Shown: piece by piece, positions 3,368 to 47,700 of the stretch
Position numbering within the stretch: the first letter of the stretch is position 1
Layout of the letters: each line of letters starts with the position of its first letter
Assembly (NCBI GenBank): GCA_043228905.1
Contig: JBHGNT010000015.1
Location: forward strand, 11,160,001 to 11,224,000
Length of the DNA: 64,000 nt
Direction of reading: 5' to 3'
From: Azolla caroliniana
Taxonomy: Eukaryota > Plantae > Polypodiophyta
The notes under the pieces: model-generated
The model's input: the letters and a program-made list of their open reading frames with translations, nothing else
What the model was told of the DNA's origin: nothing
Databases searched by the model: none
Translations under genes and position numbers: made by a program

Positions 3368-4288
3368 TTAGGATTCCGACATGAGTTGCGAAATCTTGCC
3401 CTCTTGAGCCACGAAGCCTTGTTCCCTGACACGCAGCCACAAGCAAACGGCACTAAAGCTCACAATCAAGCTAATGAGGCCACTGGCGAGCCCGATGCCT
3501 ACAATAGTGAGCACCGAGAGGCCATGGCTACTCTCAGGGGGCAGAGGGTAGCCATAAAGGTCCGGATTGCCGACAAATGAGCTCGCATTGAAGCGGGGAG
3601 CGCCAGTCGATGTGTTAGATAATGTAGCCGGGATGGGCCCGGACAAATCATTATCCGAGACATCAAACACTTTGAGCCGTTGGAGTATACCGATTTGTCC
3701 CGGAATCATTCCAGAAAGCTTGTTCCTATGCAAATCGATGAAGTTGAGATAGGTGCAGCGCGCGAGCTCAACGGGGATGGGACCGGAGATGCGATTTCCC
3801 GAAAAGTTGAGGGCAATGAGGTAGGTGAGGTTACCAATGCTGGCGGGTATGGGTCCTGAGAGGTGATTGGACGAGAGGTCGAGGCTAGCCAGTAGGGTGC
3901 AATTGGAGAGGCTAGAAGGGATGGTTCCGACGAGATTGGAGGAATTGAGTGTTATGGAGTAGACTCGATTGTCGTTGCACGTGATCCCCGTGAGGTTTAT
4001 GAGGGCCGAGGTAATGCAAGGGGTCTTGAGGTAGGGTTCATACCAAGAGGCCACAATCCCTGAATTCATCGAGGCTCGCAGACCCGAGAGGCACGCGGCA
4101 TCATCACCTGTTCCTGTTCCTGTTCCTGTTCCCATGCTCTGCCCATAACAATATGCACTACTGCTAGTCTTCTTGGAGAAACCATCATGGGTGATGAGAA
4201 TCAGAATTGCAACACCAAGAAGAAGAAGATGATGATGAAGAGGAAGATAACCATGATGATGATGATGATGATGAATCATGCCTGACAT
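3368..4288 (-). CDS. RLP44: LRR receptor-like protein, RLP44/RLP57-like (signal peptide, LRRNT, ~4 LRRs, TM helix, short cytoplasmic tail)
   Basis: Intronless 306-aa ORF with plant LRRs ([13 protein letters not shown]), [49 protein letters not shown] and tail EGKISQ. All closely match Arabidopsis RLP44 as recalled. Confidence 0.92.
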
Positions 4289-4454
4289 GGCTACTCCGTG
4301 TTGTGTTGTTGAAGGATACCATGAAAATGATGTATTCTCTCTTAAGTGTCTTCTTCCTTCCCCACCCCTATATTAGACCTACCCCTGTATCCTCTATACT
4401 TCTTCTTCTTCGTCTTCTTCTTTCTCAAATTTAAGTTGCCATGAAGTAGAAACA

Positions 4455-28392: not shown

Positions 28393-28485
28393 TGTCAGGA
28401 ATAGTACTGAGATAGAGGAGAAATTAGTACTAAGAGAGGAATATTAGTACTCAGAGGAATAGAGGGTGTAGAACACTCGAGAGAA

Positions 28486-28534
<49 letters not shown>

Positions 28535-31500
28535 GATGATAACAACGATATATTATGTGAGAAGAATATACAAGGAAGGCTATGAGGTTTAAGATTGGCA
28601 TTGAACCGATTTGGTTTGAAATAATGCCTTGTGCCTCCTTTTATAGTGTTCTCAGGAGTAGTCCTGAAGCTTCTAGAATGTTCCAGAGAAATCTGGAATA
28701 TACATTAATTTTCTATAGTAAAACTTAAATAAAAATAATATCTTATGTATTATAATAGATAGTGTAATGGTCAAGAGCTCGACCCATGTAACATAAGGTC
28801 ATGGGTTCGAGTCTTGCCATATCATGACACTATCCCCCCTTTAAAACGATGAGTGTCACGAGTCGTTTTGGATTGAGGACCCAGTTTATCTGGATATTGA
28901 CGATAGAAGTCTTCAAGAAGAGCACGAGCATTGGTCACATTCTCTATTGGTTCCCAAGTACGCTCGCTGGGACAATATCCTAGCCAATCGACTAAATAGT
29001 AGAGCTTGTTGCGAACAATCTTGGAATCGAGGATGACGTCAACCTCGTACTCAGGTTCATCTTCAAGTTCGATCAGGGGTGGAGGTTGTGGAATACGTCC
29101 TAGGATGGTGCTGTCTTGATAGGGTTCGAGGAGAGAACTATGAAACACCGGATGTATGCGAAGTTGTGGGGGTAGATCGAGACAAAAAGCGACATCATTA
29201 ATCTTTCCGATAATACGGAAAGGACCTAATCGTCGATAATCCAACTTCTCGCATGGGCGAGAGTAGTCTTGATGTGTCGTCGTAGTAGCCATACCCGATC
29301 TCCAATGTTAAAACTATATGGAAGGCGATGACGGTCCGCATGAACCTTGTGTGTTTGTTGAGCTTGTTGTAGATGAGTAGATAAATTTGCTTGTATCTTG
29401 CGTAACCGCTCCAAACGACCTCTGTGCAAGGATTTGTGGGTAACTCTGGGGTTTCAAATACACATCACTAGGGTGACAACCCGTATAAGCTAAAATGCCG
29501 TAACTTTAGTCGATGAGTGGACAAAGTTATTATAGGAAAATTCGGCGAAGTGAAGAATATCTGCCCAGTCATCCTGATGATAGCTTAGAAAGCACCGAAG
29601 ATACTGCTCCAATGTTTTATTTGTTCGTTCTGCTTGGTCGTCGGTTTGCGGGTGGTAGCCGAACGAGAGGTTACAAGTGACCTTGAGCATTTTAAAAAGG
29701 TGCTTCCAGAATTTCGAGACGAACTGGGGTCTGCGGTCGCTGATGATATTATTAGGAAGGCCATGATGCCGACATACTTCACGCATGACAATTTCGGTGG
29801 TTTCTTCACTAGAGATTTCCTTAGTACATGGCAGGAAATGAGCCATCTTCGTATATCAATCTACTACTGTTAAAATTGCATTGAATCCCTTAGAGACTGG
29901 AAGATCTATGATGAAATCTAGAGCAATGGATTGCCACGGCTTGCTTCGAATTGGTAATGGTTCTAATAAACCATATGGATGATGCCTTGGCATTTTTGCT
30001 TTGCAACACGTATCACAAGTCTGGACAAAATCTTCGACAAATTGTCACATACAAGGCCACCAGAATGATCGTTGTACTAAATCTAATGTCTTAGTACTAC
30101 CAAAATGCCCAAATGTATATGTGTCATGACAGTTTCGGACTACTCGAAGGCGGCAAGAACCATTAGGAACATACAAGAGTTTCTTAAAGAATAGTAATCC
30201 ATCATGACATTCGAATTGTCGATAGTCCATACTTGATTGTTGCGACTGTGAACAAGATGCTCGAGAGGGATCAATTTGTGCTAGAATGGCTTGGGCGAAA
30301 GCATCTATCTTCAAGTCCTCACGTATGGTATTGATAACGTGGGAATCTAAGGGCATGTCGAACATCTGTGTTGCTTGAAGTCGTGGTGGTCCCAAGATTA
30401 CTTGCTTTTGGTTATCGAAAGCTGGCTCGCCGGGACGCGGTGTTAGATACAAACGCCGTTATAATGCATCTGCCTTCCCTTGGTGCTTCCCTGGACGATA
30501 TGTAATTTTGAAGTCGAAACGCGTGAGGAATTGGACCCACTGAGCTTGACGTCGATTTAACACATGAGCACTCTAAAAGTAGGCAAGGTTTTTGTGATCA
30601 CTAAATATGGTGACTTGATGAGAGGACCCCTCTAGAAAATTCCTCCATTGCGTAAAAGAGTCCACTATTGCTAATAGCTCCTTATCATGAATTTCATAGT
30701 TGATTTCAGCGGCGTCAAACTTGCGTGAGTGGAAAGCCACAGGATGTAGCTTTTCATCATTACCTTGTTGTGACAGAATGCTACCCAATGCGAAATTCAA
30801 CGTGTCCGCTTCCATGATGAATGGTTTTTCCGGATCAACGTGAGCTAGAATAGGAGCCGTTGTAAATGCCTTCTTAAGATTCTCAAAATCCATGTCTGCT
30901 TCTTCAGACCAAACGAACGATTGTCCCTTCTTAGTAAGTTGTGTGAGAGGCAGAACAAGCTTTGAGTAATCCTGTATAAACTTGCGGTAGAAATTAGCAA
31001 AGCCTAAAAAGCATTACACATCTCGCAACGAACGCGGAGTTTGCCACTCTACCACTATTTTGACCTTAGCTGGATCCATGGAGATGCCTTCCGAGGAGAT
31101 GACATAGCCCAGAAATTCCACCTGGTTGCACCTGAAACTACTTTTTTCCAGCTTTGCATAAAGACCATGTTCTCGAAGTCGTTTTAGTACTAACAATACA
31201 TGAGAATCATGCTCTTCTTGGGTCTTCGAATAAACCAGTAGATCATCCAAATAGATCATCAAACAAACATCCAAGAGATCTCAGAATATATCATTTGCCA
31301 TGTGCTGGAAGATTGCTAGCGCATTAGTGAGGCCGAACAGCATGACCGTATACTCGAAGTGCCCATATCTAGTGCGAAACGCGGTCTTCCATTCATCTCC
31401 TGGTCGGATTTGTATGAGGTTATATGCTCCCTGTAAGTTGATCTTCGTGAAGAACCTTGCACCATTGATTCGTTCTAAAAGACTTGAGATAAGGGGAAGT

Positions 31501-33986
31501 GCATACCTATTTCTGATGGTGACCTTATTCAAGCCACGGTAATCTACAACGAGACGAAGTGATCCATCCTTTTTCTTGACAAAGAAAATGGGTGCGCCGG
31601 CTGGAGATTTCGAATGCCAAATGAAACCATTTTCCAAATTCTCCTCTATATAGGCTCGAAGGACTTCAAGCTCGGTTGGTGACAAATTGTAGATCGGTCC
31701 CCATGGTGGCTCTTTTCCTGGTTGTAAATCGATGGGGCAATCATACGGTCGATGGTGAGGAAGCGTATGGCTTGTACTTTATCGAACACATCGGCATAAT
31801 GATGATACTTCTTTGGAAGTTGAATGGTGGACTCTTCTTTAGTGGTGTCAGAGGGTTTTACTATATTGCGAAGAGAAACATTTCTTCCTTGCGTCCTTCT
31901 TCCTGCAACTGATGTAGCGAAATGGTTGCAATCAGATCCTTGGGCTTGTTGATACTGTATTTCTCTTGGTCTCCAATCTATGTCTGGGTTATGTTATTCG
32001 AACCATGGTAATCCTAAAACAAAGGGATGTTATGGGATACTAATTATATTAAATGATACTACACACGCTAGATTATCTAGGACAATATTAACGGGCCCTG
32101 ACTCTTCTATGATATTTCTGGAAGCAATGGGACGACCATCAATGACTACTACAGAGGCTGGACATGGGAGTTTTCTGAGAGATATCTGATGAGCTTGGGC
32201 AAAATTCCTATCCATGAAGCAAGAATTTGCTCCGGAATCTAGAAGTGCTAAGACATGTACTAGAGGGGTACTTTTAGTACTAACTGTTACTTGGGCTACG
32301 AACACATTGCTAACTTGCTTAGAGGGAATGGAACCACTAATGGGCTGCACAGATCTAGGGCTGTCCAACCAAACGGCTCCTATTTTGGCTGGACTTAGTC
32401 GTTTAACTCTTCTTCTAACTCACTAAGGACATCAAATTTGTTCGCTAGATTTGGGCTATTAGTACTATTAGGACTATCTGATATTCCTACTGAAATAGAC
32501 TCGGGTTTAGTACAATTAGAACTAGCAACTATTTGGTTTACCTGTCTTCTTGGCCTATGGGGACAATTTATTGCAATATGCCCTGGTCCACCGCAATAAA
32601 GACATAGTCGATTTGCTCGACGTCACTGCTTTTCTTCTTCCGATAATGGTTTGCGACGACGTGTAATGTCAATCTCCATCAGAGTCGGAGTATTCACTGG
32701 AGACGCATTATATGACTCCCTCTGAAAAGGTTTCGCTGCCACTGAGATGTAGGTGGGCTCTGGTCTTGCCCTTGGCATTTGGAATTGCCGTTCCGAATGT
32801 CGTTCGAAAAGGCGGTTGTCGCATCTCACCGCGCGACTGATTGCTTTTATTAATGACTTTGGTTCTTCGGGGAAGGTCAAGAGTAAATCCTTGACATCAT
32901 TGCGTAAACCAGAATGAAATTGCTTCATCAATGCTTGATCATCCCAAGGGATATCGGCGGCGTGTAGGCGGAAATCTGCAGCGTATGCGGAGGCTGGATG
33001 ATCACCTTGACGTAATCGTCGGATTTTGTTGATTGCTATCCTTATGCTGTCAGTATCTCCAAGACAACCTTTAAACTCACTTATAAATTCTACAAAATTG
33101 TTTAGTAATGGAGATTCCTTTTCTAACAACGGAGCGAACCATGCAAATGCTGAGCCACTAAGTAGAGTGCCTACTAGTCCCACTCGTGATGCATCGGTGG
33201 GATATCGAGAAGGATGCATTTGAATCACTAAACGTACCTGATTTAGAAAACCTCTAAACTGTGATCGGGTCCCATCAAATTTTGCTGGAAGAACCGATCT
33301 TGGGTTCTTTGTGAATCCCTTGAGTGCTTGATCCTTGTTGTTGTAGTGATACAATAGTCACTTAAAGTTGTTGTACACGTAACGTCAACTCCCCGTGTTG
33401 TTGTTGTTTTTCAAGTGCTATTTGTTGAAGATCCCGCAACAAACAATGATTTTCTTGTTCTAGTGCTGCAAATTTCTCTTTTAAGCATTGGAGCTCCGAG
33501 AAAACAGATTGGTATTCCTGAGCGCTAACAATTTCCATTTTACTAGGGAGGATAAGAGGATTAGTATGAAGGGAAAAAAGGGGCAAGAAAATGAGGGAAA
33601 CCGGAATGAAGACCGGAAAACGGGGATATGTAAGAAGATAAAAGGAAGAGGAGGAAAGGAGGAGACGGAAGGAGGGAAAATCGGTTCAAACTATTAGGAA
33701 TAGTACTGAGATAGAGAAGAAATTAGTACTAAGAGAGGAATATTAGTACTAAGAGGAATAAAGGGTGTAGAACACTCGAGAGAAGGAGAGAGAGAGAGAG
33801 AGAGATCGAGGGAGAGGAAATGATGATGACAATGATATATTATGTGAGAAGAATATACAAGGAAGGCTAGGAGGCTTAAGATTGGCGTTGAATCAATTTG
33901 GTTCGAAATAATGCCTTGTTCCTCCTTTTATAGTGTTCTCAGGAGTAGTCCTGAAGCTTCTAGAATGTTCCAGAGAAATTTGGAAT
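28393..33986 (-). mobile_element. Ty3/gypsy chromovirus, Tcn1-like: gag-PR-RT-RH-INT-chromodomain, decayed
   Basis: 3' LTR 28393-28829 with adjacent PPT AAAGGGGGATAG; truncated 5' LTR 33692-33986. Gag LPAKFDGTRSQFRGFL, PR ALLDSGA, RT YLDD, RH NYEIHDKELLAI, INT, chromodomain EYEVDVILDSK..LYYLVDWLGY..SERTWEP. Confidence 0.93.
28760..28819 (+). promoter_or_regulatory. tRNA-like Pol III A-box/B-box module at the U3 end of the Tcn1-like LTR, antisense to the element
   Basis: A box TAGTGTAATGG (28760), B box GGTTCGAGTCT (28804), tRNA-like spacing of 44 nt, variable-loop-like AAGGTC. Confidence 0.7.
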
Positions 33987-34265: not shown

Positions 34266-34893
34266 AGCCATGTATCGACATCCAGTGCAACTATAGCTAG
34301 TCTTTTTGAGCTTTGCATAAAGACGATGTTCTCGTAGTCATCTTAGTACTAATAGTACATGAGAATCATGCTCCTCCTGTGTTTTTGAATAAACTAGTAG
34401 ATCATCCAAGTAGATGTCCAAAAGATCTTGGGATATATCATTTGCCATGTGCTGGAAGACTGTTGGCGCATTGGTGAGGCCGAATGGCATAACCGTATAG
34501 TCAAAGTGCCCATATCGGGTGTGGAAAGTTGTTTTCCATTCATCTCCCGGTCGAATTCGTACGAGGTTATATGCTCCTTGTAAGTCAATTTTTGTGAAAA
34601 AGTTTCCGCATTTAATCCTCTCTAAAAGACTCGAGATGAGTGGAAGTGCATACCTATTCCTAATGGTGACCTTATTCAAGCCATGATAATCCACGACTAG
34701 ACGAAGTGAGCCATCTTTTTTCTTGATGAAGAAAATAGGTGTGCTGGCTGGAGATTTCCAATGTCGAATGAACTCATTTGCCAAATTTTCCTCTATGTAG
34801 GCTCGAAGAACTTCAAGCTCAGTTGGTGACAAGTTGTAGATCGGTCTCCATGGTGGTGCTTTTCTTGGTTGTAAATAAATGGGACAATCATAT

Positions 34894-36654
34894 TGAAAAG
34901 AAAGGAGAGTGATTGTATGAAGCAGTAGGACCGTGTGTGAGTGTGTGTGCGTATGAGCACTTATGCGAAACTGAGAGAGAGAGAGAGTCTTAAGATGAGA
35001 AAACTATGTATTACATCCAATAGTAACAAAGTTACAAAGGGTTGGTTTAAATACCAACTAAACTAGGGCAAGGGCCCTTTCTACTATTTACAAAACTAGC
35101 CCCGATTGCTTGGTCTGGCGTGATGACTCCCCCTTCTACCGAACTCTCTAGAGCTGTTCCTGTCCGCTTGCCATTGGTGGGAGTTACGCTCTTGGATCTA
35201 CCGACTGTGACGGCCTTGTCCGAATCGACCTCTACTTCCACGAACAAAATTTCTTTTATCATCCAACTAGGAGTAGGGCATCTAACCCTCAGGTGTGTTT
35301 CTCCTTTGCCATGTGTGATTTTCCTCGACCAACAATATTGAGTGGAGATTGAAAAAGGTGGGAGGATTCTCTCTTGTGAGGACAACGGACCTTATTGCGT
35401 TGAATCGAGGTGCCAAGACTCTGAGGCATATTTGCACCATTTCTTCATCGTCAATGCCAACATTGATTGACCCGAGGTCATCGCATAGCTCCTTGATCTT
35501 CAAGGCGTAGTTGCTGATTGACATGTCCCTTTGTTGAATGCCATTCAACTCCTAATGGAGCTGGAGCTTGTGGGCAGCTGTAATGGGCGCGAAGATCCTC
35601 TTGAGCTTTGCCCCACGTTTCTTTCGATGTTTTCGTCTCTCGAATATAGCCTAGCATATGATCATGTACGCATGATGCAAGGCAATACAACACACGGCTT
35701 GCGGCCTGCTCCCAAACGGGATAGTCGGCGTGTGTTGGTTTTGGTTGCGTTTCATGAGCTCCTTCAATATAGCTCTAGTATCCTTGTCCGACAAGGTACT
35801 GTTGTATCTTGTACTCCCAAGGTGCGAAGTTTGTCTCGTCGAGCTTCTCCGTAGGAAGAGCGTTTCCCATTTGAGTATTCATGATGCTTTCTTCTCTGTT
35901 TCTTAAACCAGTTTTGTTGATCGTCGGTATGTACAACACCACAGTCGATTAGTCTTGATCAGAAAACCACACGCTTTGATACCATGTAAAGAATCCAGAG
36001 ATGGATTCTGTGCAGCGGAATAGATATGAATTCTGTGTGTGTATGAGAGAGAGAGAGAGAGTGAGAGAGACAAGGAGTAAGACACAGAGAAGACGCAAGG
36101 TAAAGTATATTAACAAAGGAGAAAGCCTCAACATTATACAAGGTGGGAGGGTGCTTTATATAGTCACCCTCTCTCTTCATTAACTACAAGACTCATGGAG
36201 CATGGGGAATGTGAAAGCTCATAAGTTATGTCTCATAGAATATAATTCTATGACTCATACTAAATGCTAGAATAGAATACAAAGTGGTGACATAATGGTG
36301 ACTCTTGACCGTTGGAGTGTCTATTCACTCTCAAGGTAAGTTCATACACTAGACCAAGTTGAGCTTGATTCTCAACACCATGAAAAGAAAGAAGAGTGAT
36401 TGTATGCAGTAGTAGGACTGTGTGTGAGTGTGTGTGCATATGAGCACTTATGCGAAACTGAAAGAGAGAGAGAGAGACTCTTAAGATGAGAAAACTATGT
36501 ATTACATCCAATTGTAACAAAGATACAAAGGGTTGGTTTAAATACCAACTAAACTAGGGCAAGGGCTCTTTCTACTATTTACAAAACTAGCCTGGTATGT
36601 CCATGAGCTAGTGTGAAACCTATTTCTATGGGAAGTTGAGTTCGATTCTCAACA
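34894..36654 (-). mobile_element. Deleted copia (LTR-A 36381-36654 and partial 34894-35100; gag) carrying a second LTR (LTR-B 35985-36377)
   Basis: TSD catat/catac at a site that is uninterrupted in the paralogous Tcn1 copy (~31742). PBS TGGTATCAAAGC and gag fragments at 35282-35883. Confidence 0.85.
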
Positions 36655-37697
36655 CATACGGTCGATGGTGAGGAAGAGTACTAGCTTTTACCTTATAAAA
36701 AACGTGAGCGTAATGATGATACTTCTTTGGAAGTTGAATTGTTGACTCCCTGTTAGGGGTGTTGGAAGATTTCACTGATACTGCGAATACAAATATTGAT
36801 TCTTTGCGTCCTTCCTTACGTACTTGATGTAGCGAAATGGTTGAAATTTTGTGAGTAGATTCTTGAGATTGTCGATACCTGATTTCTCTTGTTCTTCAAT
36901 CTATGTTCGGATTGTATAATTCGAACCATGGTAACCCCAAAATAGTTGGATGCTTTGGACTACTAATTATATTAAATGATACCAAACACACCAAATTATT
37001 TAGGACAACACTAATCGACTCTAATTCTTTTACGATATTTCTAGAAGCAATGGGGTGACCATCAATGACTACTGCAGAAGCTGGGCAAGGGATTTTTCTT
37101 AGGGATATCTTATAAGCTTGGGCGAAATTCGTATCCATGAAGCAAGAATTGACTCTGGAATCTAGGAATACTAAGACATGTACTCGAGGGTTACTTTTAG
37201 TACTAATTGTTACTTGAGCTAGGAAGACATTGCTAACTTGTTTAGAGGGAATGGAACCACTAATGGGCTGCACAGATCTAGGGCTGTCTAACCAAACAAC
37301 TCCAATTTCGGCTGGACATAGTCATTTAACTCTTCTTCTAGTTGACTAAGGACTTCAAATTTGATTATCCATCGGAATTGGAGTATTTGCTGGAGGTGCA
37401 TTATATGACTCCCAACAATCGTTGATTTTCTTGTTCTAGCGCTACAAACTTTTCTTTCAAGCACTTGAGCTTTGAGAAGACAGATTGGTATTCTTGAACG
37501 CTAATAGTTGCCATAGTATTGGAGGAAGGAAGGATATGAAGATTTGTATGAAGGGAATGAGGGATACGAAGATGGGAAATTTGGTTCAAACTATCAGGGA
37601 TAGTACTACATGCAAGGAGAATTAGTATTAAAGAGAGAGGAGAAGAATGAGTATTAGTACTAAGAAGGGAATGAGTGTGTGAGAATCACAAGAGAGG

Positions 37698-37737
<40 letters not shown>

Positions 37738-37985
37738 AGTGAGAGAATGATGACAACAGGAAAGTATATTATATTATATTATATGAGGGAAGATACAAGA
37801 ACAACTAGGAGGCTTAAGATTGGCGTTGAACTGAATTGATTCTTAATAATACCATGTGCCTCAATGTATAGTATTGTTAGGACTACTCCTGAAGTTTCTA
37901 GAATGATCTAGAGTAATCTGGAATATACATGAATTTCCTAATTTGAAATAATAAATGAAAATTATATTTTTTGTAGTACAATGCA

Positions 37986-38060
37986 TGGTTTATTGGTAAA
38001 GGTTCAACCCTTGTAACACAAGGTCATGGGTTCAAATCCTTCTGCAACCATACCATGCCA
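37986..38060 (+). promoter_or_regulatory. tRNA-like Pol III A/B-box module in the second Tcn1-like LTR
   Basis: A box TGGTTTATTGG (37986), B box GGTTCAAATCC (38029), spacing 43 nt. Confidence 0.7.
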
Positions 38061-38070
38061 TATCATGACA

Positions 38071-38577
38071 CCTTCAACTCGAGGACCAAACACATCCAAG
38101 GAAGATACCACTTGCTTCGGGAGAAGGTAGAAGACAAAGAATTTTCTCTGACAAAGATTCACACAAAGGAGAATGGGTCGGACATGCTAAGCAAGGTGTT
38201 GACAACGAACAAGCTGGACGTGTGTTGAAGACGGTTCGGATTGACGAGACATCCCAGGTCAGAGTGAACGGGGATTTTGTTGGGAAAGTAGTCCCCCTCT
38301 GGATGGGATCCGGATGAGAAATGAACGAGCCAAATCAGACGAGTCGGAGGAAGGAACCAGACTAGATGGATACGGACAATATTAAGCTAGATCCGGGACA
38401 TATTAATAAATATGTTTCGATGTGACTGTTGAGGTCATATTTGTAAATATCCCCAAAGTTATATAATTATAAATATAACTAGGGTAATAACTGTAGTGAT
38501 CATCGTGTGTTGTATAGAGAGACAAAGAGATAGAGAGAGAGAGAGAGTTGGAGAAGTCACTTCTATTGTAACCGCCT
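38071..38577 (+). mobile_element. Copia (Tork-like) RNase H tail, PPT and truncated LTR
   Basis: FNSRTKHIQGRYH..REKVE...ENGSDML, then PPT gagtgaacggggattt and LTR starting TGTTGGG at 38278. Confidence 0.8.
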
Positions 38578-41710: not shown

Positions 41711-42014
41711 ATGAGTAAGACACAGAGAATACACAAGGTAAAGTATATTAACAAAGGAGAAAGACTCAACATTATACAAGGTGGGAGGAGGGTGCTTTAT
41801 ATAGTCACCCTCTCTCTTCATTAACTACAAGACTCATGGAACATGGGGAATGTGAAAGCTCATAAGTTATGTGCCATAGAATATGATTCTATGACTCATA
41901 CTAAATGCTAGAATACAAAGTGGTGACATAATGGTGACTCTTGACCGTTGGAGTTTCTATTCACTCTCAAGGTAAGTTCACACACTAGACCAAGTTGAGC
42001 TTGATTCTCAACAC
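38578..42014 (-). mobile_element. Copia element B: 5' LTR (~41605-42014), gag, PR, GAG-pre-INT, INT, start of RT; 3'-truncated
   Basis: Gag LPTEKLARNNFASWEYKM, zinc knuckle CGYCRKLGYHEEEC, WFVDPGAS, INT ORF 39204-40151. RT start [10 protein letters not shown] is joined to a foreign LTR. Confidence 0.9.
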
Positions 42015-43331
42015 CATGAAAAGAAAGAAGAGTGATTGTATGCAGTAGTAGGACTGTGTGTGAGTGTGTGTGCATATGAGCACTTATGCGAAACTGAAAG
42101 AGAGAGAGAGAGTCTTAAGATGAGAAAACTATGTATTACATCCAATAGTAACAAAGATACAAAGGGTTGGTTTAAATACCAACTAAACTAGGGCAAGGAC
42201 TCTTTCTACTATTTACAAAACTAGCATGGTATGTCCATGAGCTAGTGTGAAACCTATTTCTATGGGAAGTTGAGTTCGATTCTCAACACATACGGTCGAT
42301 GGTGAGGAAGAGTACTAGCTTTTACCTTATAAAAAATGTCAGCGTAATGATGATACTTCTTTGGAAGTTGAATTGTTGACTCCTCGTTATGGGTGTTGGA
42401 AGATTTCACTGATACTGCGAATACAAATATTGATTCTTTGCATCCTTCCTTACGTAATTGATGTAGCGAAATGGTTGAAATTTTGTGAGTAGATTCTTGA
42501 GATTGTCGATACCTGATTTCTCTTGTTCTTCAATCTATGTTCGGATTGTATAATTCGAACCATGGTAACCCCAAAATAGTTGGATGCTTTGGACTACTAA
42601 TTATATTAAATGATACCAAACACACCAAATTATTTAGGACAACACTAATCGGCTCTAATTCTTCTACGATATTTCTAGAAGCAATGGGGTGACCATCAAT
42701 GACTACTACAGAATCTGGGCAAGGGAGTTTTTTTAGGGATATCTTATAAGATTGGGCGAAATTCGTATCCATGAAGCAAGAATTGACTCCGGAATCTAGG
42801 AATACTAAGACATGTACTCGAGGGTTACTGTTAGTACTAATTGTTACTTGAGCTAGGAAGACATTGCTAACTTATTTAGAGGGAATGGAACCACTAATGG
42901 GCTGCACAGATCTAGGGCTGTCTAACCAAACAACTCCAATTTCGGCTGGACATAGTCGTTTAACTCTTCTTCTAGTTGACTAAGGACTTCAAATTTGTTT
43001 ATCCATCGGAATTGGAGTATTTGCTGGAGGTGCATTATATGACTCCCGACAATCGTTGATTTTCTTGTTCTAGCGCTACAAACTTTTCTTTCAAGCACTT
43101 GAGCTTTGAGAAGACAGATTGGTATTCTTGAACGCTAATAGTTGCCATAATATTGGAGGAAGGAAGGATATGAAGATTTGTATGAAGGGAATGAGGGCTA
43201 CGAAGATGGGAAATTTGGTTCAAACTATCAGGGATAGTATTACATGCAAGGAGAATTAGTATTAAAGAGAGAGGAGAAGAATGAGAATTAGTACTAAGAA
43301 GGGAATGAGTGTGTGAGAATCACAAGAGAGA

Positions 43332-43381
<50 letters not shown>

Positions 43382-44229
43382 AGAGAGATAATAATTACAA
43401 CAGGAAAGTATATTATATTATATTAAATGAAGGAAGATACAAGAACAACTAGGAGGCTTAAGACTAGCATTGAACTGAATTGGTTCTTAATAATACCATG
43501 TGCCTCAATGTATAGTATTGTCAGGACTACTCCTGAAGTTTCTAGAATGATCCAAAGTAATCTTGGAATATACATGAATTTCCTATTGTGAAATAATAAA
43601 TGAAAATTGTATTTTTTGTAGTACAATGCATGGTTTAATGGTAAAGGTTCAACCCTTGTGACAGAAGGTCATGGGTTCAAATCCTTTTGGAGTCATACCA
43701 TGCCATATCATGACACCTTCAACTCGAGGACCAAACACATCCAGGGAAGATACCACTTGCTTCGGGAGAAGGTAGAAGAAAAAGAATTTTCTCTGACAAA
43801 GATCCACACAAAGGAGAACGGGTTGGACATGCTAACCAAGGTGCTGACAACGAACAAGCTGGACGTGTGTTGAAGACGGTTCGGATTGACGAGACATCCC
43901 ATGTCAGAGTGAACGGGGATTTTGTTGGGAAACTAGTCCCCCTCCGGATGGGATCCGGATGAGAAATGAATGAGCTAAATCGGACGAGTCGGAGGAAGGA
44001 ATCAGACCAGATGGATACGGATAGTATTCGGCTAGATCCGGGACATATTAATAAATATGTTTCGATGTGACTGTTGAGGTCATATTTGTAAATATCCCTA
44101 AAGTTATATAAGTATAAATATAACTAGGGTAAGAATTGTAGTGATCATCGTGTGTTGTATAGAGAGACAAAGAGATAGAGATAGAGAGAGTGAGAGAGAG
44201 TTGGAGAAGTCACTTCTGTTGTAACTGCC
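41602..44229. repeat. Local segmental duplication, copy 2
   Basis: Colinear with 35982-38577. Confidence 0.93.
43226..43715 (-). mobile_element. Tcn1-like LTR (duplicated copy) with tRNA-like module at 43631-43684
   Basis: Paralog of 37592-38070. A box TGGTTTAATGG (43631), B box GGTTCAAATCC (43674). Confidence 0.85.
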
Positions 44230-45439: not shown

Positions 45440-47700
45440 AATGGAAGTAATGAGACTACTATCATAGAGAGAAAGGTTGTAGACTATTTCAATGTTTAAA
45501 CCAAGCACATCAGCAATGAAGACAAGAAGGTAGTACTTTATGAAATATTAAATGATCCATCGATAAAGGAGTTAGCTGATTGTGATGGTCTTAATGCAAA
45601 CATAACATCTGTACTAGTAAATAATCTCCGAAATAGTTTCGTATCCATGAGCAGGTCAGAAGATGATCTTGTCTTAAAAATGTCTAGTTTAATGATGTTA
45701 CTTAATAGTGATGTTGACGATATTAACATCAGTGTGCTATCTAAGGTAATTGGTGTTAGTAGAAAAAGTGTGTACAATACATTGAATCAGATAGTTTCCT
45801 TGGGTGAAGGAACTAGTCTTCTAAAGCTAACAACAAGATGTAAGCCAATGACACCCATAACATCAGAAATCAAGGATATAATCACAATATTTTGGACTAA
45901 TGAGAGTAGGGTTTCACCCAATAAGAAGGATTTATGTAGGAAACGTGTTGGAAGGAGTCAATACGAGGAGCATCCCATTCTTCTTCTTGATGTACCTCAG
46001 GTATTTACATTTATCTCAACATTTGTTTTGACTTTTGAGCTTAGTTAATTAGGTTATTAACTACCTCCGAATATGACCATACCAGAATAGCTAATTACCT
46101 ACCTCAGAATATGACCATAGCTAACTAGCTACCACAATAGCTAATTAGCTCCCTAAGAATATAAAACATAGTTATTTGCTACTAGAATAGCTAATTAGCT
46201 ACCATTCATAGCTATTTAGCTACCACAATAACTAATTAGCTGCCTATAACAATAGCTAATTAGCTACCAGACTAGCTAATTAGTTGCTTATGACTATAGC
46301 TAATTAGCTACCAGAATAGCTAATCCCCTACTAGAATAGTTAATTATCTACCTAAGAATATGAGCATAGCTATTTAGCTACCAAAATAGCTAATAAACTG
46401 TGTATGACTATTGCTAATTAGCTATTAGAATAGCTAACTAGCTATTCTTAATAGCTAATTTAGTTATTACCAGCTAATTAGCTACTAGGATAACTAATTT
46501 GCTACCAGAATAGCTAATTTGCTACCAATCATAACAAATTAACTAGCACTCTCAGATAATTAGCTACCTCTGACTACAACTATTTAGCTACCATAATAGC
46601 TAATTAGATACCTAAGAATATGAGCATAGCTATTTAGCTACCCGAATAGCTAATTAATTGTGTATGACTAGCTAATTAGCTATCAGAATAGCTAACTAGC
46701 TAACTAGCTAATTAGCTAATTAACTGCATATGACTATAGCTAATTAGCTACCAGATTAGCTAACTAGCTATTCACAATAGCTAATTTAGCTATTACCAAC
46801 TAATTAGTTGCTAGGATCGCCAATTAGCTACCAGAATAGTTAATTAGCTACCAATCCTAGCTAACTAACTATTCCCAATTGCTAATTAGTTATTTCCAGC
46901 TATTTAATTTCCAGGATAACTAATTAGCAACTAGATTAGCTAACTAGCTATTCCCAATAGCTAATTTAGTTATTACCAGCTAATTAGTGGCTAGGATAGC
47001 TAATTAGCTACCAAAATAGCTAATAAGCTAATTAGTTGCTAGGATAGCTAATTAGCTACTAGAATAGCTAATTAGCTACCAATCATAGCTAACTAACTAT
47101 TCCCAATAGTTAATTAGTTATTACCAGCTATTTAACTGCCAGGATAGCTAATTAGCTACCAGAATAGTTTATTAGCTGCTATAACAGGTTTGGAGCATAG
47201 ATATAGAGCTAATCAGTATGTCCATTTTATTACACAGGTCGATTTATTTATTAGGTTCAGACGAATGCATCCAAATATCAAAGTTCAAATACAAACATTC
47301 GAGTCTCTTAAGCCACACTTTGTGAGACACTTGAAGGATCGATACACATGTTGTTGCATTTACCATGTACAAATGGGTTTTCTCAAGTACTTTGTTAATC
47401 TACTATGTCACCATAGCACCTCCCTAAGTAATGTAGTTTGCACTTGTGAGTGCCCAATTTGTCGATCAAACCCACAATAGCACTTTAAATCATTTGAGCA
47501 TGTTATCTCTTCCATGAGTTGTCTTTTAGATTCAGTATTGTGTCTGAGAGAAACGGAGGCTATCTTCCACACTCATAAATGTGTCATAGGTTTATGTCAA
47601 GATTGTTGCCCCAGTAGATTTAGGTGGTGTCCAAATGAATTGAGTAGTGAAATATTAATCTTTGTCAAGTTATTTGAGTCACTTGACACCAATTTCAAAG
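45440..47700 (+). pseudogene. Sola2-like DNA transposase gene, intron 46001-47237, truncated by a copia
   Basis: In-frame splice CAG|GT...CAG|GTC joins FWTNESRVSPNKKD..RKR to FRRMHPNIKV...TFESLKPHFV...RYTCCCIYH, followed by a Cys-rich C..G.C..C motif. These match motifs I associate with the Sola2 transposase N-terminal region. In-frame stops are present. Confidence 0.6.
46040..47185. repeat. Palindromic minisatellite array of TAGCTAATTAGCTA units, intronic
   Basis: Dozens of exact or degenerate copies of a 14-bp palindrome separated by short linkers such as ccagaa. Confidence 0.95.

What the first reader, a model, noticed from the sequence alone, without database searches (positions are those of the whole stretch)
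28601..33689. Tf1-style self-priming: PBS is complementary to the element's own predicted transcript 5' end
Seen: no tRNA-Met PBS follows the 5' LTR. Instead TTGAACCGATTT (33689-33678, - strand) is the exact 12-nt complement of AAATCGGTTCAA in the LTR (28612-28601), which begins 33 nt after TATAAAA (28645), about where transcription should start. The second subfamily shows the same pairing (PBS ~37578-37589 vs LTR ~37826-37837), with two mismatches explained by CpG decay. Established: S. pombe Tf1 primes reverse transcription from its own 5' end, and Tcn1-like chromoviruses occur in fungi and seed-free plants. Inference: tRNA-independent priming in a plant element.
Basis: partly seen in the sequence, partly recalled or inferred. 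Interest (0 to 1): 0.7.

Follow-up and report, generated by a model that had tools for sequence, protein, structure and literature searches.

The report
Self-priming retrotransposon family in a fern
An abundant jumping gene in a fern genome has no tRNA primer site; the 12 letters in that place pair with a stretch of its own terminal repeat and change in step with it across families, so it likely starts copying itself with the front end of its own RNA, a trick known from yeast Tf1 and already predicted for related moss elements.

Summary
Observation confirmed. 33689-33678 is the exact complement of 28612-28601 in the 3' LTR, 33 nt after TATAAAA. The element is a decayed Ty3/gypsy chromovirus of a large family (1,765 LTR-end+PBS sites, control 2). 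14 of 41 distant environmental relatives keep the layout with 8 other sequences. No tRNA 3' end fits; 9-11-nt T-arm matches exist for two subfamilies only. The transcription start and RNase H cleavage were not testable. Tf1-like self-priming is likely (0.88) but not new: Neumann 2019 predicted it for 83% of 1,500 plant Tcn1 elements, and this scan noted it before in moss genomes. What this adds is the covariation and the host: a fern, where a 2010 PCR survey found no Tcn1-like elements. Tcn1 membership itself was not tested against named references. New member of a known kind; interest 0.33.

The parts
33692..33986 (-). 5' LTR remnant (its first ~130 nt are missing; last bases read AATA where the 3' LTR reads GACA)
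   Evidence: 277 matches and 18 mismatches against the 3' LTR
33926..33932 (-). TATA box of the 5' LTR
33888..33899 (-). predicted self-primer (RNA nt 1-12), 5' LTR copy, two decay changes
33690..33691 (-). GT spacer between LTR end and PBS; GT in 87 of 93 copies; may pair with RNA nt 14-15
33678..33689 (-). primer-binding site complementary to the LTR 12-mer
32395..33538 (-). gag (Ty3_capsid, Retrotrans_gag; CCHC-like motif read from the translation), broken by stops and a frameshift
32030..32419 (-). aspartic protease, in another frame that overlaps the gag end
31281..31778 (-). reverse transcriptase, open piece
   Evidence: RVT_1, 1.6e-13
30573..31013 (-). RNase H
   Evidence: RT_RNaseH_2, 1.5e-32
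29490..30458 (-). integrase zinc finger and core, in pieces
28822..29307 (-). Tf2-like SH3 domain and chromodomain with the three aromatic residues (EYEV...VDWLGY), group I type
   Evidence: definition from PMC3350952 passages
28830..28842 (-). polypurine tract
28393..28829 (-). complete 3' LTR, 437 bp, TG...CA
28639..28645 (-). TATA box of the 3' LTR
28601..28612 (-). self-primer sequence, 3' LTR copy, exact complement of the PBS
37592..38070 (-). LTR of the second subfamily (primer copy 37837-37826; TATA decayed), followed by a deleted gag-protease remnant
37578..37589 (-). PBS of the second subfamily
43212..43715 (-). duplicate of the second-subfamily LTR and PBS (primer 43481-43470, PBS 43223-43212)

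Best explanation
This is a decayed copy of a high-copy Ty3/gypsy chromovirus family in a fern whose PBS pairs with a 12-nt stretch of its own LTR, and active members likely prime minus-strand DNA synthesis with the first 11-12 nt of their own RNA, as Tf1 does. Shown: anatomy, no TGG-type PBS, the complementarity, its fixed place 32-33 nt after TATA, and paired changes on both sides across lineages. Inferred: transcription starts at the first A of the 12-mer; the 5' end folds back across a pyrimidine-rich R-U5 loop of 120-280 nt onto the PBS; a weak inner helix (RNA nt 14-15 with the GT spacer, nt 18-20 with GAC of the LTR end) leaves nt 13 unpaired. Taken over from Tf1 and untested here: the element's RNase H cuts after the duplex to free a 3'-OH, and RT extends it through GT into U5.
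For: Family size: 1,765 exact LTR-end+PBS sites vs 2 control; 3,306 TATA-primer-motif sites vs 0; 219 sites of a different PBS vs 0. Gag-anchored set: 93 of 110 loci kept; 69 of 93 perfect 12/12 vs 23.8 mean and 39 maximum in 5,000 permutations; two-sided changes at R2, R3, R4, R5, R7, R8; at R5 among 64 A-family copies 38 T-A, 22 C-G, 3 T-G, 1 C-A. On a gag tree the paired states sit on supported clades. Core duplex probability above 0.9 in 75 of 93. Environmental relatives at about 55-75% RT identity: 14 of 41 have a perfect 10-13-nt complement right after ACAGT, 8 distinct sequences, control 0 of 41; TATA-like box 31-35 nt upstream in 14 of 14 vs 1.1% background. RT groups with these and with frog elements, apart from angiosperm chromoviruses (100/100). 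Five copia sites in the same window carry TGGTATC-type PBSs.
Against: No start-site data: only contigs, none on record as RNA. The permutation ignores kinship; independent events are few (about 7-8 by my reading of the tree) and the independent-pairs sign test gave p = 0.5 with 2-3 pairs. The TATA window was limited to 32-34 by the anchor, the LTR-end anchor included the first 4 PBS bases, and the ACAGT anchor and TATA motif list were chosen. 27 of 41 environmental loci gave no hit. Tf1's three-helix structure is not fully met: inner helix mean probability 0.23-0.27 and almost no covariation; no helix downstream of the PBS (-4.9 vs -5.6 kcal/mol shuffled). T-arm matches of 9-11 nt to host tRNA genes exist for the two commonest PBS types. 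This copy's own 5' LTR primer is damaged.
Confidence: 0.88

Rival explanations
1. The PBS binds a tRNA fragment cut in the T-loop; the LTR match is secondary.
For: tRNA-Asn(gtt) has a 9-nt T-arm stretch complementary to the site from the first base after the LTR, 13-14 nt from its 3' end. Three of 30 pattern loci scanned hold tRNA genes (Thr, Gln-like, Leu-like) with an 11-nt T-arm match to the two commonest PBS types. The tRNA set is incomplete: 63 candidates scored of about 58,700; 15 of 45 pattern hits not scanned.
Against: Family C's best tRNA match is 8 nt and out of register. Each PBS change is mirrored in the element's own LTR, and 8 unrelated environmental PBS sequences are each mirrored in their own LTR; an outside primer gives no reason for that. 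The 11-nt matches lie in what look like organellar tRNA clusters (my reading).
Confidence: 0.04
2. The duplex is real but does something else (packaging, dimerisation or translation control), or the RNA starts upstream so that the 12-mer is internal; priming comes from elsewhere.
For: Covariation shows pairing, not priming. In family A the bases just upstream can form a hairpin with the 12-mer. Start site unmapped.
Against: The duplex sits exactly at the PBS position, 2 nt after CA, ends at a pyrimidine|A step 31-35 nt after TATA in LTRs that are otherwise unalike, and no other primer site is present. The hairpin is absent from families B and C.
Confidence: 0.07
3. Chance inverted repeat inherited through the family.
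For: Kin share sequence; few independent events.
Against: 0 of 20,000 shuffles; paired changes at 6 of 12 pairs; 8 different sequences at the same position in distant relatives with control 0.
Confidence: 0.01

Closest known systems
Plant Tcn1-clade chromoviruses (REXdb, Neumann et al. 2019, PMC6317226: passages, supplement rows; SM-Tcn1 and PpatensLTR, Novikova et al. 2010, PMC2864245: passages and section 7)
   Same: Gypsy order with a group I chromodomain; overlapping gag and pol frames (REXdb: 60% of Tcn1); size about 5.7 kb and ~440-bp LTR like SM-Tcn1 (5,704 bp, 440 bp); self-complementary site 0-5 nt after the LTR (REXdb: self-priming 83% of 1,500); thymine-rich leader.
   Different: Host is a fern. 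REXdb gives Tcn1 only for moss and club-moss and its main text has no word 'fern'; the 2010 PCR survey found no Tcn1-like clone in 26 ferns and horsetails and reported no self-priming evidence for SM-Tcn1. REXdb's call was a blastn complement of 10 nt or more; in the passages read I saw no covariation or TATA-spacing analysis.
Tf1/Tf2 of Schizosaccharomyces pombe and the Tf1/sushi group, with Tj1 and Tosmo1-3 (passages of PMC7175516, PMC10085805, PMC4600332; Levin's primary papers were not held)
   Same: PBS complementary to the predicted RNA 5' end; chromodomain and Tf2-type SH3; RT-RNase H present; RT near frog elements of presumably this group (61-65%).
   Different: 11-12-nt duplex of other sequence after a GT spacer; overlapping ORFs rather than one ORF; only one weak flanking helix where Tf1 needs two; no experimental test.
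TAR lineage of Ty1/copia (Houba, Osr-1), predicted self-priming in plants (PMC6317226)
   Same: Predicted tRNA-independent priming in a plant (89% of 203 elements).
   Different: Other superfamily; shows that self-priming in plants is already in print twice.

Membership tests
Ty3/gypsy chromovirus | gag-PR-RT-RH-INT order with C-terminal chromodomain, LTRs TG...CA, PPT | tested here: met
Tf1/sushi self-priming group | no tRNA 3'-end PBS | tested here: met
   no TGG after the LTR; best match among 38 distinct tRNA sequences is internal; tRNA set incomplete
Tf1/sushi self-priming group | PBS complementary to about 11 nt of the own LTR, kept by covariation | tested here: met
Tf1/sushi self-priming group | the complementary stretch is the RNA 5' end | not testable with these tools
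   contigs only; TATA spacing is indirect support
Tf1/sushi self-priming group | three-duplex 'pretzel' structure | tested here: inconclusive
   central duplex strong; inner helix conserved (pairing in 86-92 of 93 per pair) but probability about 0.25; downstream helix not found
Tf1/sushi self-priming group | RNase H cleavage releases the primer | not testable with these tools
   RNase H domain present; biochemical step
Tf1/sushi self-priming group | RT groups away from seed-plant chromoviruses, with fungal/vertebrate elements | tested here: met
   100/100 split from six angiosperm RTs; frog RTs inside; 161 columns; Galadriel, Galahad and Mordred not in the tree
Tcn1 clade (REXdb) | RT/RH/INT cluster with named Tcn1, PpatensLTR or SM-Tcn1 | tested here: inconclusive
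   no named reference came back
Tcn1 clade (REXdb) | group I chromodomain with aromatic cage | tested here: met
   read by eye against the definition; also found in Galadriel/Galahad and Chlamyvir, so not diagnostic
Tcn1 clade (REXdb) | 5-bp target-site duplication | not tested
   5' LTR of this copy is truncated; other copies not examined
Tcn1 clade (REXdb) | reported host range moss and club-moss | tested here: not met
   host is a fern; a range statement, not a defining character

The most novel reading that the evidence does not exclude
The fern family is not an inherited Tcn1 but a separate horizontal entry of a self-priming Tf1/sushi lineage into a water fern, from the lineage that also gave amphibian elements (frog RT 61-65% vs about 50% for seed-plant chromoviruses; joined at 92/91, unstarred), and it primes from a simpler two-helix RNA with a conserved GT spacer instead of Tf1's three-helix pretzel.
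Probability: 0.15. Interest if true: 0.6.

Novelty: new member of a known kind. Interest (0 to 1): 0.33.

Why it matters
Self-priming in plants has been a prediction from simple complementarity. This family adds covariation and fixed TATA spacing, close to the best support sequence alone can give, and points to a very abundant native substrate where 5' RACE and strong-stop sequencing could show the mechanism in a plant. The fern host widens a distribution that was used to argue for rare horizontal transfer into mosses and spikemosses. It does not change the known mechanism.

Tried and rejected
Start site: no RNA holder listed; four runs laid, all contigs, no start or end clusters; no evidence either way. 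Named clade references: three homolog searches and one cluster look-up gave none for Tcn1 (one search was for the host), a sequence look-up in earlier findings gave nothing, PDB gave Ty3 as nearest. Levin 1995, Lin and Levin 1998 and the Tf1/Tf2 review were not held. My first reading of a moss host was dropped. A third helix downstream of the PBS was not found. The upstream hairpin was dropped as a general feature. Longest-exact-inverted-repeat scans without an anchor were noisy. Independent-pairs sign tests had too few pairs. The 5' LTR fold had an off-by-one index and was redone. One search stopped at the last locus, so 29 of 30 were read. Searches for a fern report: 'Tcn1'+'ferns'+'chromovirus' gave only the 2010 paper, 'Azolla'+'Tcn1' gave none, and the fern genome papers listed show 0 occurrences of Tcn1 in their main text; supplements and datasets (for example the 300-genome set of PMC8282616 with 4 Pteridophyta) and subscription journals were not seen and may already classify such fern elements as Tcn1.
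Full report
1. Observation. Each 12-mer occurs once per strand in the window, and none of 20,000 shuffles of the LTR gave a 12-nt match. The matching copy is in the 3' LTR. The 5' LTR is truncated (33986-33692; 277 matches, 18 mismatches to the 3' LTR) and its copy at 33899-33888 has two changes, leaving pair probabilities of 0.34-0.60. The PBS starts after a 2-nt GT spacer, with no TGG.

2. What it is. Pfam gives gag, protease, RT, RNase H, integrase, Tf2-type SH3 and chromodomain in gypsy order, in pieces separated by stops and frameshifts. Gag and protease are in overlapping frames. The chromodomain keeps the three aromatic residues of group I (definition in PMC3350952 passages). The 3' LTR is 437 bp, TG...CA, after a polypurine tract. 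The family is large: 1,765 exact LTR-end+PBS sites against 2 for the control, 3,306 TATA-primer-motif sites against 0.

3. Host. I first assumed a moss. The LRR gene at 3368-4372 has ferns as best named hits (62-65%) and nests among fern genes (SH-aLRT 91-93, unstarred). A plastid stretch shows trnS, a psbZ-like ORF, trnG, trnC and a petN-like ORF in that order (protein names recalled), which follows from the trnC-trnE inversion of core leptosporangiate ferns (PMC3098776 passages; figure not seen). The genome is 523 Mb, with large coordinates seen on contigs C1-C22 only, which would fit a small-genome water fern (recalled, not pursued). Earlier notes on this genome also call it a fern.

4. Covariation within the genome. 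A capsid-family search scored 150 of 5,072 candidates. I took 110: the 30 given as loci and 80 fetched (the first 50 in list order, the rest partly picked for varied ORF length, before any PBS was seen). 13 had no LTR end or were other gags; of the 97 left, 93 had their best complement at a site 32 or 33 nt after a TATA-like box and just before a conserved CRCCAGTC-like motif, and 4 had only 6-8 of 12 elsewhere. 69 of 93 are perfect 12/12; permuting PBSs among elements gives 23.8 on average and at most 39 in 5,000 trials. Both sides change at R2, R3, R4, R5, R7 and R8. At R5, a CpG position, 64 family-A copies give 38 T-A, 22 C-G, 3 T-G and 1 C-A. On a gag DNA tree the T-A state marks a 39-row clade (99) and the triple change a 22-row clade (99). 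Limits: the permutation ignores kinship; independent events number about 7-8 by my reading; sign tests on 2-3 independent pairs gave p = 0.5; the anchor allowed TATA distances of 32-34 only and included the first four PBS bases. Two PBS-anchored samples gave 22 of 30 perfect each.

5. Distant relatives. A metagenome scan gave 79 loci; 41 had at least 1.9 kb upstream of RT. In 14 of 41 the 10-13 nt right after ACAGT have a perfect complement 99-284 nt upstream; the reversed control gave 0 of 41. They carry 8 distinct sequences (seven loci share one), none like the fern's. All 14 have a TATA-like box 31-35 nt upstream, against 1.1% of background positions (81 of 7,509). The anchor and the TATA list were chosen after looking. 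Of the 27 misses, L271 has an 8-of-12 duplex at the same spacing and L333 has the group's PBS but no primer in range; many others lack an ACAGT site or an LTR. In an RT tree of 41 rows the window's RT, these relatives and two frog RTs fall on one side of a 100/100 branch, six angiosperm RTs on the other. No named Tcn1 was available.

6. tRNA rival. A mature tRNA ends in CCA, so it needs TGG; five copia sites in the window have it and this element does not. But the 12-mer resembles a T-arm. tRNA-Asn matches 9 nt from the first base after the LTR (38 distinct tRNA sequences tested), and three tRNA genes among 30 of 45 pattern hits match 11 nt of the two commonest types. These are internal, fail for family C (8 nt, out of register) and cannot explain why each LTR mirrors its own PBS. 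The tRNA set is incomplete.

7. Structure and mechanism. With RNA starting at the 12-mer, the duplex core has probability above 0.9 in 75 of 93 and above 0.5 in 87. An inner helix recurs: nt 14-15 with the GT spacer and nt 18-20 with the LTR's last GAC, nt 13 unpaired; each pair is possible in 86-92 of 93 copies, but mean probability is only 0.23-0.27 and it hardly covaries. It would explain the conserved spacer and downstream motif. Tf1 needs three duplexes (PMC10085805 passage); I found no helix downstream of the PBS. In Tf1 the first 11 bases pair with the PBS and RNase H cuts between 11 and 12 (PMC7175516 passage). I infer the same here, with an 11-12-nt primer. Start site and cleavage are untested.

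8. What is known. Neumann et al. 2019 predicted self-priming for most Tcn1 elements (83% of 1,500) and for TAR copia elements, by a blastn complement of at least 10 nt. They give Tcn1 for moss and club-moss only. Novikova et al. 2010 found no self-priming evidence in SM-Tcn1 and no Tcn1-like clone in 26 ferns and horsetails. Searches found no report of Tcn1 in ferns and no covariation or start-site study of plant Tcn1 priming in the listing; supplements and subscription journals were not seen. This scan noted the same layout in two moss genomes.

9. Verdict. It works like Tf1 (0.88) and fits the Tf1/sushi group; Tcn1 membership is likely but was not tested against references. The mechanism is known and already predicted in plants. 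The additions are the covariation evidence, the conserved spacer helix and the fern host. New member of a known kind, interest 0.33.

Noticed in passing
window 36273-38218 and 41909-43863: Local duplication with 5,634-5,645 nt spacing and 93-99% identity, holding nested LTR and copia pieces.
   Followed up: partly
window 28620-28601, family A and L166: The bases just upstream of the primer can form a 5-7-bp hairpin with it; at the RNA 3' end this could mask the second copy of the primer. Absent from families B and C.
   Followed up: partly
L343: A single copy with matching changes in both primer and PBS (12 of 12); could be double CpG decay or copying of the primer into the PBS during reverse transcription.
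   Followed up: no
L204, L209, L211, L223, L228: Family C LTR end plus PBS followed by the same 8-nt tail but with no primer within 420 nt upstream; possibly short fragments captured in another repeat.
   Followed up: no
window 3368-4372 (-): Intronless-looking LRR receptor-like protein ORF (RLP44-like by hit names), nearest named hits in ferns.
   Followed up: partly
window 46041-47058: About 1 kb array of degenerate palindromic TAGCTAATTAGCTA-like units.
   Followed up: no
window 21168, 35984, 48565, 54652, 58445: Five copia-type sites with a TGGTATC PBS.
   Followed up: partly
window 34338-35003 (-): Second RT fragment, 82% identical to the element's RT, upstream of the truncated 5' LTR.
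   Followed up: no
P0001, P0036: Poison-frog proteins are the closest named RT relatives (65% and 61%).
   Followed up: partly
L063, L065: Capsid hits in open frames of 945 and 1,056 aa from other gypsy lineages without this PBS.
   Followed up: no
L091, L098, L099, L108-L110: Tandem arrays of tRNA-Lys(ttt), tRNA-Ile(tat) and tRNA-Arg(tct) genes with about 300-700 nt spacing.
   Followed up: no
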